DNA of 34,950 bases from a virus (taxonomy: Duplodnaviria > Heunggongvirae > Uroviricota > Caudoviricetes), in IMG/VR virus record IMGVR_UViG_2541047119_000014, one strand, 5' to 3'. Numbering within the stretch: the stretch's first letter is position 1; each line of letters begins with the position of its first letter. Both the position numbers and the translations under genes were made by a program. The notes beneath the pieces are model-generated. The model saw only the letters and a program-made list of their open reading frames with translations. It made no database searches and was not told the DNA's origin. This document shows, one piece after another, positions 34,501 through 34,950 of the stretch.

Positions 34501-34508
34501 TCAGGGAT
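34485..34508 (-). promoter_or_regulatory. gix-like recombination site, right (inverted copy)
   Basis: Reverse complement reads catccctgaAACCTCGGTTTACgggata, sharing the 17-bp core AACCTCGGTTTACGGGA with the left site. Confidence 0.8.
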
Positions 34509-34550
34509 GCCGTATATCTACTTTAAAAGGCTTTTCCACCTCTTTTTAAG

Positions 34551-34950
34551 GTAAGCGTACAGCGAGGGCCGTATTGACGGGGATGTGTTATTCAGCTGGC
34601 AGTGCTATGCGCCACGGAAGCAGTTCGCTGACCCGGTTGACCGGCCAGTCTGCTATGACGCCAAGCACATGGCGAAGGTAGCTTTCTGGATCCACGTCAT
34701 TCAGTTTGCACGTCCCGATCAGGCTGTACAGTAGCGCTCCCCGCTCACCACCATGATCAGAGCCGAAGAACAGGAAGTTTTTACGACCCAGACTGACCGC
34801 CCGCAGGGCATTTTCAGCGATGTTGTTGTCGATTTCCACCCAGCCATCGTTCGCATAGTACGTCAGTGCCGGCCACTGGTTAAGTGCGTACGCGAACGCC
34901 TTCGCCAACTCTGAGTGTCGCGACAGGGTCTTCATCTTTTCACGCAACCA
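34551..34950 (-). mobile_element. IS66-family insertion sequence, terminal part (continues beyond the window)
   Basis: Element terminus begins GTAAGCG at 34551, characteristic of IS66-family inverted repeats (from memory); contains the 3' end of a transposase gene. Confidence 0.7.
34588..34950 (-). CDS. IS66-family transposase, C-terminal fragment (truncated by window end)
   Basis: C-terminal 119 aa (…[39 protein letters not shown]…[11 protein letters not shown]) resembles IS66 TnpC C-termini. Confidence 0.7.

What the first reader, a model, noticed from the sequence alone, without database searches (positions are those of the whole stretch)
34504..34950. IS66-family end sits 50 bp from the right gix-like site, where an invertase gene is expected
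In Mu and P1 the invertase gene (gin/cin) starts just outside the right recombination site. Here only about 47 bp separate that site from a GTAAGCG terminus and the 3' end of an IS66-type transposase gene. The insertion may have displaced or disrupted the invertase, which would lock the tail-fibre segment in its present orientation and so fix host range. It also marks this prophage as a mosaic.
Basis: partly seen in the sequence, partly recalled or inferred. Interest (0 to 1): 0.65.

Follow-up and report, generated by a model that had tools for sequence, protein, structure and literature searches.

The report
ISEc8 inserted just upstream of invertase
A common E. coli jumping gene (ISEc8) has landed 13 bases in front of the still-intact DNA-invertase gene of a Mu-like prophage, pushing the gene 2.45 kb away from its tail-fibre switch; this is an ordinary, strain-specific insertion.

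Summary
Window 34551-34950 is the right end of ISEc8 (IS66 family), 400/400 identical to reference copies. It starts with GTAAGCG, 42 nt after a genuine 26-bp gix-like site (34483-34508). The host element is a Mu-like transposable prophage of the E. coli O157:H7 Sp18 type. In intact relatives a Gin-like serine invertase gene starts 13 nt to the right of the insertion point.

The invertase is not destroyed. An IMG/VR contig (L005) carries the other ISEc8 end, the predicted 8-bp target duplication TTTTTAAG, the ribosome-binding site and a full 186-aa invertase gene. The rest of the prophage follows, up to a Mu-type 5-bp duplication (ACTAC) that matches the window's left flank. So this is a simple ISEc8 insertion that moves the gene, and the enhancer inside it, 2,450 bp from the right gix site and cuts it off from any native promoter.

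Whether the switch is locked is not shown. The enhancer works over kilobases, related invertases are common in E. coli genomes, and both orientations occur among intact relatives. Reduced expression of the prophage's own invertase is likely but inferred.

None of 5,426 complete E. coli genomes has this junction. The finding is ordinary prophage decay and of low interest.

The parts
1..148 (.). Host flank: part of an IS200/IS605-family element, the tnpA-tnpB junction region, into which the Mu-like prophage is inserted
   Evidence: 100% match to annotated IS200/IS605 tnpA / InsQ-TnpB loci in O157:H7 genomes. The empty site is in L006.
144..148 (.). Left copy of the 5-bp Mu-type target duplication, ACTAC
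   Evidence: The same ACTAC follows the prophage right end in L005 (5360-5364). The empty site L006 1944-1948 has a single copy.
149..34550 (+). Mu-like transposable prophage from its left end (TG...) to the IS insertion point. It includes MuA (1423-3513), MuB (3585-4517), head genes, tail genes and baseplate genes.
   Evidence: Matches Mu-like prophages of STEC from position 149 onward, each with a different host flank. 99.0-99.3% identical to the AUSMDU00014361 prophage. ORF sizes equal the annotated genes.
32486..33451 (+). Tail-fibre gene in its present orientation: constant part plus variable part Sv. The start annotated in relatives is 32540.
   Evidence: The ORF crosses the left gix-like site.
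33057..33082 (.). Left 26-bp gix-like crossover site, central dinucleotide TC at 33069-33070
   Evidence: Compared with Mu gixL.
33071..34494 (.). Invertible (G-like) segment
   Evidence: The same 1,436 bp is 100% identical but inverted in AUSMDU00014361. Both orientations occur in complete genomes.
33486..34007 (-). Tail-fibre assembly gene (U'-like), the only one in the segment
   Evidence: Pfam Caudo_TAP, 1.9e-18. The exact protein is widespread.
34129..34494 (-). Silent alternative tail-fibre C-terminal part (S'v-like)
   Evidence: An in-silico flip gives an intact 316-aa fibre ORF. That fusion exists at 100% identity in two complete genomes.
34483..34508 (.). Right 26-bp gix-like crossover site, central dinucleotide GA at 34495-34496
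34509..34550 (+). Remaining 42 nt of the native 54-nt gix-to-invertase spacer. Any native invertase promoter must lie here or further left.
   Evidence: Identical to the spacer in intact relative L001.
34543..34550 (.). Left copy of the 8-bp ISEc8 target duplication, TTTTTAAG
   Evidence: Present once in intact L001. The second copy is at L005 392-399, next to the other IS end.
34551..34950 (-). Right end of ISEc8 (IS66 family): terminal inverted repeat starting GTAAGCG, plus the 3' end of the transposase gene. The window ends inside the IS.
   Evidence: 400/400 identical to ISEc8 copies. ISEc8 is 2,442 bp with GTAAGCG...CGCTTAC ends and 8-bp duplications.
34588..34947 (-). Last 119 codons and stop codon of the ISEc8 transposase (TnpC)
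   Evidence: Pfam DDE_Tnp_IS66 and DDE_Tnp_IS66_C.

Best explanation
A complete ISEc8 (IS66 family, 2,442 bp) transposed into the 54-nt spacer between the right gix-like site and the Gin-like invertase gene of a Mu-like (Sp18-type) prophage.

Shown:
- The insertion lies 13 nt upstream of the invertase ATG and duplicates TTTTTAAG.
- The IS genes point leftward, toward the invertible segment. The invertase points rightward.
- The invertase ORF, its ribosome-binding site and the enhancer-homologous sequence in its 5' coding region are intact. They now sit 2,450 bp further from the right gix site.

Inferred:
- Any transcript carrying the ribosome-binding site must start upstream of the insertion point. 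The gene is therefore cut off from its native promoter. Expression of the prophage's own invertase is probably much reduced, so the segment switches less often from the common orientation it now has.
- A complete lock is not expected. The Fis-dependent enhancer works at kilobase distances, and related invertases in the host can act in trans.
- By analogy with Mu, the extra 2.45 kb (41.8 kb against 39.4 kb) probably exceeds the slack of headful packaging, which starts at the left end. Virions would then tend to lack the right end.
For: - IS identity and ends.
- Insertion point relative to the intact relative.
- Other IS end, TSD and intact gene: L005 was found by searching for the predicted far junction. 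Sequence and ORF are, domains. The protein is identical to that of L001, 76% identical to Mu Gin, and its best PDB hits are the Gin structures 3uj3 and 4m6f.
- Same prophage insertion: the Mu 5-bp duplication ACTAC and the flanking IS200/IS605 sequence join the window's left flank to L005's right flank across the empty site L006.
- L005 positions 391-5360 are 100% identical to an intact prophage.
- Enhancer homology: 94/120 nt identical to the Mu gin 5' end, and the proximal 15-mer GTATCAACAAATGAC is identical.
- The enhancer works many kb away (PMC3798978).
- No rightward sigma-70-like promoter was found in the ISEc8 end. A terminator-like hairpin lies at L005 219-235 on the invertase strand.
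- Mu packages on average about 1.5 kb of host DNA at its right end (PMC7350765).
Against: - The central 1.65 kb of the IS is not in either contig, so completeness is inferred from the two ends and the duplication.
- L005 comes from a separate record (IMG/VR UViG 2541047119_000019). That it is the same genome as the window is inferred from two coincident rare junctions, not documented.
- The native promoter was not located. The consensus scan finds none in the intact relative either, so the scan cannot show loss of expression.
- An outward promoter in ISEc8, or read-through across it, is not excluded.
- Headful capacity of this phage is unknown.
Confidence: 0.8

Rival explanations
1. One reading: the IS insertion destroyed or deleted the invertase gene, so the tail-fibre segment is permanently locked and host range is fixed.
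For: The window itself contains no invertase gene, and it ends inside the IS.
Against: L005 shows a complete, unmutated 186-aa invertase gene directly after the other IS end and the target duplication. Other Din-type invertases are common in E. coli: 3,665 of 5,426 genomes have at least one, and an O157:H7 strain carrying this invertase gene at 100% identity (ECP19-2498) has four matching places. From memory, not tested here: Gin, Cin, Pin and Hin complement one another.
Confidence: 0.05
2. Functionally neutral insertion. The invertase is still made, or is replaced in trans, and the segment keeps switching. Possible sources are an outward promoter at the ISEc8 left end, read-through from the native promoter, or another prophage invertase.
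For: - The ORF, ribosome-binding site and enhancer-like sequence are intact.
- The enhancer is distance-independent (PMC3798978).
- Multiple invertase homologues occur per genome in STEC.
- The native promoter must be weak or atypical, because no consensus match exists even in intact relatives.
Against: - No promoter-like site faces the invertase in the last 220 nt of ISEc8.
- A terminator-like hairpin lies on that strand at L005 219-235.
- The IS genes run in the opposite direction, so read-through from them cannot help.
Confidence: 0.3
3. Not a simple insertion. In the window's genome the ISEc8 copy is the breakpoint of an IS-mediated inversion or deletion, and its far end adjoins unrelated DNA.
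For: - The window stops inside the IS, so its far side is not seen directly.
- ISEc8 is multicopy in STEC: up to 43 matching places per genome, and 9 copies reported in Sakai and FRIK804 (PMC7430833).
Against: L005 supplies exactly the predicted far junction with the matching 8-bp duplication. It ends at the same Mu insertion site as the window. Two independent rare junctions coinciding by chance is very unlikely.
Confidence: 0.05
4. Assembly chimera: the IS sequence was wrongly joined to the prophage contig.
For: Both ends of the window lie in repeated elements (IS200/IS605 and ISEc8), as is typical of short-read contigs.
Against: - The junction falls exactly at the IS terminus GTAAGCG.
- The reciprocal junction with a perfect 8-bp duplication exists in an independent record.
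Confidence: 0.02

Closest known systems
ISEc8 (IS66 family) of enterohaemorrhagic E. coli
   Same: - 400/400 nt identity at one end and 390/391 nt at the other.
- GTAAGCG...CGCTTAC termini and an 8-bp target duplication.
- Gene order tnpA-tnpB-tnpC, inferred from reference copies.
   Different: Only the insertion site differs. This junction is absent from 5,426 complete E. coli genomes, GTDB species representatives and JGI metagenomes.
Phage Mu G segment / Gin / gix / sis host-range switch
   Same: - Two inverted 26-bp sites with the same core (AACC TC GGTTTAC).
- Alternative tail-fibre C-termini in opposite orientation.
- An invertase gene just right of the right-hand site, with the protein 76% identical to Gin.
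- The 5' coding region is homologous to the Mu region that holds the Fis-dependent enhancer (PMC3378877).
   Different: - The segment carries only one tail-fibre assembly gene instead of two.
- The spacer sequence is unrelated to Mu's, and the promoter-like TTTCCT-16-GATAAT inside Mu gixR is not conserved.
- In this copy, ISEc8 separates the site from the gene.
Sp18-type Mu-like prophages of E. coli O157:H7 and other STEC
   Same: - Same gene order.
- 99-100% nucleotide identity.
- Variable insertion sites with 5-bp duplications.
- Size of about 39 kb (PMC7430833).
   Different: All relatives examined have the invertase gene directly next to the right site. This one has the ISEc8 insertion.
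P1-like plasmid prophages with a damaged cin / C-segment switch
   Same: Mobile-element-driven decay of a tail-fibre inversion switch, with presumed loss of host-range switching (PMC6906374).
   Different: In those elements the invertase gene is truncated or the segment is remodelled. Here the gene and both sites are intact and are only separated.

Membership tests
IS66 family (ISEc8) | Terminal inverted repeats beginning 5'-GTAAGCG | tested here: met
   GTAAGCG at window 34551-34557. The reciprocal ...CGCTTAC is at L005 385-391. Reference copies have the same ends.
IS66 family (ISEc8) | 8-bp target-site duplication | tested here: met
   TTTTTAAG at window 34543-34550 and at L005 392-399, and only once in intact L001. 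This holds provided L005 is the partner contig.
IS66 family (ISEc8) | DDE transposase of the IS66 type (TnpC), with tnpA and tnpB upstream | tested here: inconclusive
   The C-terminal 119 aa of TnpC hit PF03050 and PF13817. L005 1-391 matches the tnpA end of ISEc8 at 390/391 nt. The central ~1.65 kb, which includes tnpB, is in neither contig.
IS66 family (ISEc8) | Nucleotide identity to named ISEc8 copies | tested here: met
   100% over 400 nt to many loci annotated 'IS66-like element ISEc8 family transposase'.
Din-type DNA inversion system (Gin/Cin/Pin/Hin) | Small serine recombinase with a Resolvase catalytic domain and a C-terminal HTH_7 domain | tested here: met
   In L005 412-972, not in the window. 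PF00239 scores 1.4e-51 and PF02796 scores 1.7e-14. 76% identical to Mu Gin, including the YxRVSTxDQ active-site motif.
Din-type DNA inversion system (Gin/Cin/Pin/Hin) | Two 26-bp crossover sites in inverted orientation with identical central dinucleotides | tested here: met
   Window 33057-33082 and 34483-34508, with core TC/GA. Similar to Mu gix.
Din-type DNA inversion system (Gin/Cin/Pin/Hin) | The segment actually inverts, so both orientations occur | tested here: met
   Met for intact relatives only. The window orientation occurs in 184 complete genomes and the flipped orientation in 7, two of them at 100% identity. L012 and L015 are flipped. Not testable for the IS-bearing copy.
Din-type DNA inversion system (Gin/Cin/Pin/Hin) | Fis-bound recombinational enhancer in cis | tested here: inconclusive
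   The 5' 120 nt of the invertase gene are 94/120 identical to Mu gin, where Fis sites lie in the coding region (PMC3378877). Fis binding was not tested.
Mu-like transposable phage | MuA/MuB transposition genes, a TG left end, a 5-bp target duplication and a variable insertion site | tested here: met
   Annotated MuA C-terminal domain and AAA ATPase genes in relatives. ACTAC duplication. Different flanks in different strains.

The most novel reading that the evidence does not exclude
The ISEc8 insertion silences the prophage's own invertase, so the tail-fibre segment is effectively frozen in the majority orientation. The extra 2.45 kb also pushes the right end of the genome out of the Mu-type headful. 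A single IS hop would then both fix host range and immobilise a transposable phage, as a natural first step toward domestication.
Probability: 0.2. Interest if true: 0.35.

Novelty: already known. Interest (0 to 1): 0.15.

Why it matters
The insertion is a clean natural example of an IS separating a site-specific recombinase gene, and its internal enhancer, from its recombination site without damaging either. If the source strain were available, it would be a ready-made test of two things in vivo: how far invertase expression depends on the short gix-proximal spacer, and how enhancer distance affects inversion. Beyond that it is a strain-specific polymorphism of two well-known elements, with no bearing on an open question. 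For genome annotation, the practical point is that the prophage is not truncated at the window's end. The remaining 5 kb (invertase, DUF6645/SASA protein, com, mom-like gene, right end) lies on another contig.

Tried and rejected
- Exact junction searches. The near junction was absent from GTDB species representatives, IMG/VR and JGI metagenomes. The far junction was absent from GTDB representatives. Only the far junction in IMG/VR gave a hit.
- IMG/VR searches for the window's left Mu junction and for the gixR spacer found nothing, so the window itself is not in that collection.
- BLAST of the junction against 5,426 complete E. coli genomes found no genome with it.
- A look-up of contigs encoding the tail-fibre assembly protein returned only intact relatives and did not reveal the source contig.
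- Consensus promoter scans of the native spacer and of the IS-invertase junction found no site in either. They are therefore uninformative about expression.
- Literature search for the mapped gin promoter found nothing usable in the held library, and R. C. Johnson's review is not held. The statement that invertase promoters overlap the adjacent crossover site rests on my memory only.
- The idea that the 'GTAAGCGTA' match in intact relatives meant a different IS there was rejected. It is a short alignment overrun: intact relatives read ...TTTTTAAGGAAGGTAAATACATG.
- ISEc8 target preference. Six distinct sites were sampled: TTTTTAAG, TTTTTTAA, GAGAAAAG, GATTACGC, CGTTGAAC and ACTGAACG. No common motif emerged.
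- tRNA scan of the window found none.

Full report
**What the window is.** From position 149 the window is a Mu-like transposable prophage of the type found in E. coli O157:H7 and other STEC (Sp18 type).
- It matches such prophages at 98-100% identity from exactly position 149 onward, and each relative has a different host flank.
- It carries a MuA-type transposase (1423-3513) and a MuB-type ATPase (3585-4517).
- Mu-like head, tail and baseplate genes follow, with ORF lengths equal to the annotated genes of an intact relative.
- The first 148 nt are part of an IS200/IS605-family element.

**The tail-fibre switch.**
- A 179-nt, 75% complementary inverted repeat lies at 33065-33243 / 34322-34500.
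- At its outer ends are two 26-bp sites: 33057-33082 (TTATCGATAACC TC GGTTTACGGGAA) and 34483-34508 (reverse complement ATCCCTGAAACC TC GGTTTACGGGAT). They share the core of Mu gix.
- The tail-fibre ORF (32486/32540-33451) runs across the left site.
- Flipping 33071-34494 in silico gives a second intact fibre ORF of 316 aa, followed by the only tail-fibre assembly gene (33486-34007, minus strand; Pfam Caudo_TAP).
- The switch is active in nature. The window's orientation is found in 184 complete E. coli genomes and the flipped one in 7, two of them at 100% identity.
- In strain AUSMDU00014361 the 1,436-bp segment is 100% identical but inverted. Draft genomes L012 and L015 are also flipped.

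**The observation.**
- GTAAGCG starts at 34551, which is 42 nt after the right 26-bp site.
- Positions 34551-34950 are 400/400 identical to copies annotated 'IS66-like element ISEc8'.
- The 119 codons at 34588-34947 (minus strand) hit DDE_Tnp_IS66 and DDE_Tnp_IS66_C.
- Reference copies show that ISEc8 is 2,442 bp, ends GTAAGCG...CGCTTAC and makes 8-bp duplications.

**What should be there.** The best relatives match the window at 99.9% up to the junction and then diverge.
- In L001 (O157:H7 ECP19-798) the sequence continues ...CCTCTTTTTAAG|GAAGGTAAATAC ATG CTG ATT GGC TAT... This opens a 186-aa 'recombinase family protein' gene.
- The insertion point is thus 13 nt upstream of the invertase ATG, at the 5' edge of the ribosome-binding site.
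- The native gix-to-ATG spacer is 54 nt. Mu has about 59 nt.

**What lies beyond the IS.** From the ISEc8 ends and the 8-bp rule I predicted the far junction GCTGTACGCTTAC-TTTTTAAG-GAAGGTAAATACATG.
- It occurs once in IMG/VR, in contig IMGVR_UViG_2541047119_000019, fetched as L005 (6,593 bp).
- L005 starts 391 nt inside the tnpA end of ISEc8 (390/391 identical).
- It then has TTTTTAAG (392-399), the ribosome-binding site and a complete invertase gene (412-972).
- The invertase protein is identical to that of L001. It has Resolvase and HTH_7 domains and is 76% identical to Mu Gin, including the active-site motif. Its closest solved structures are Gin 3uj3 and 4m6f.
- L005 continues with the DUF6645/SASA gene, com, a mom-like gene and the prophage right end. 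Positions 391-5360 are 100% identical to the AUSMDU00014361 prophage.
- After the right end come ACTAC and IS200/IS605 tnpB sequence.
- The window's left flank ends in ACTAC, and the uninterrupted site in O157:H7 PV15-279 reads ...GAAACGACTAC|AGGCATTT....
- So the window and L005 are the two halves of one prophage insertion. It has a Mu-type 5-bp duplication and is split only by the unassembled middle of ISEc8.
- Without the IS the prophage is 39,362 bp. With it, 41,812 bp.

**Consequences, and what is shown versus inferred.**
- Shown: the invertase ORF, its ribosome-binding site (restored by the duplication) and the 5' coding region are intact. That region is homologous to the part of Mu gin that holds the Fis sites: 94/120 nt are identical and the proximal 15-mer is identical (PMC3378877).
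- Shown: these features are displaced by 2,450 bp, and the IS genes point away from the invertase.
- Inferred from geometry: a transcript that includes the ribosome-binding site must start left of the insertion point, so the native promoter is now 2.45 kb upstream, across antisense IS DNA. No rightward promoter-like site is seen in the last 220 nt of ISEc8. A terminator-like hairpin lies on that strand at L005 219-235. The same scan finds no promoter in intact relatives either, so it cannot settle expression.
[quoted passage not shown] That paper also notes that the normal ~100-bp proximity limits the reaction to a single subunit rotation, so control could be looser here.
- Trans-acting relatives are common. 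3,665 of 5,426 E. coli genomes carry at least one related invertase gene, and the O157:H7 strain ECP19-2498 has four matching places. Cross-complementation among Gin, Cin, Pin and Hin is from my memory of the classical literature and was not tested here.
- Mu packages by headful from the left end and takes on average only about 1.5 kb of host DNA at the right (PMC7350765). By analogy, a 2.45-kb insertion may leave the right end out of virions. This is an inference, because the capacity of this phage is unknown.

**Rarity.** The junction is absent from 5,426 complete E. coli genomes, although 206 records carry this invertase at 95% identity or more. It is also absent from GTDB representatives and JGI metagenomes. 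It is a strain- or clone-specific event.

**Verdict.**
- The identification as IS66-family is right (ISEc8).
- 'Displaced' is right, and 'disrupted' is wrong.
- 'Locked' is unproven and at most partial.
- 'Mosaic' is not the right description.

This is an ordinary IS insertion into a well-known prophage type. Similar mobile-element damage to tail-fibre switches has been described in P1-like plasmids (PMC6906374). Interest is low.

Noticed in passing
window 34529-34550; L002 3497-3522: The 22 nt left of this ISEc8 copy (GGCTTTTCCACCTCTTTTTAAG) closely resemble the flank of the O157:H7 ISEc8 copy inside a terminase small-subunit gene (CCTTTTGACACCTCATTTTTTAAG). BLAST extended about 20 nt past the IS end. 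This may reflect a target preference. Six sampled sites gave no common motif. The terminase copy also seems to lack the last 4 nt (TTAC) of the far end.
   Followed up: partly
window 33071-34494: The invertible segment holds only one tail-fibre assembly gene (33486-34007, minus strand), and it pairs with the silent fibre end. In the window's orientation, which is also the majority orientation in genomes (184 against 7), the expressed fibre has no assembly gene downstream on its strand. Mu has one assembly gene for each orientation.
   Followed up: no
window 1-148; L005 5360-6593; L006 1944-1948: The Mu-like prophage is inserted inside an IS200/IS605-family element, between tnpA and the tnpB (InsQ/TnpB RNA-guided endonuclease) gene, with the 5-bp duplication ACTAC. 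Both ends of the window lie in repeated IS elements, which suggests the window is a whole short-read contig.
   Followed up: yes
L019 1-1649 and 40987-41409: In strain AUSMDU00014361 the sister prophage is itself inserted inside an ISEc22 (IS66-family) transposase gene. IS66-family elements and this Mu-like phage have therefore each been found inserted into the other.
   Followed up: no
one search hits H81 and H82 (LC727881, LC727895): Two Stx-converting phage records carry an annotated 'region of the inserted Bacteriophage Mu-like phage' with a gix and invertase region 97.8% identical. This phage family also transposes into Stx prophages.
   Followed up: no
window 34588-34129, minus strand: The ISEc8 transposase gene points toward the silent S'v and U' genes on the same strand. 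Read-through out of the IS would transcribe them in the sense direction. No evidence was sought.
   Followed up: no
L009, L010, L015, L018 against L011, L014: At the right end, relatives carry either a Mom-like gene (PF25680) or a DNA_methylase gene (PF00145) after com. This is a module swap in the DNA-modification region of this phage family. L005 has the Mom-like version.
   Followed up: no
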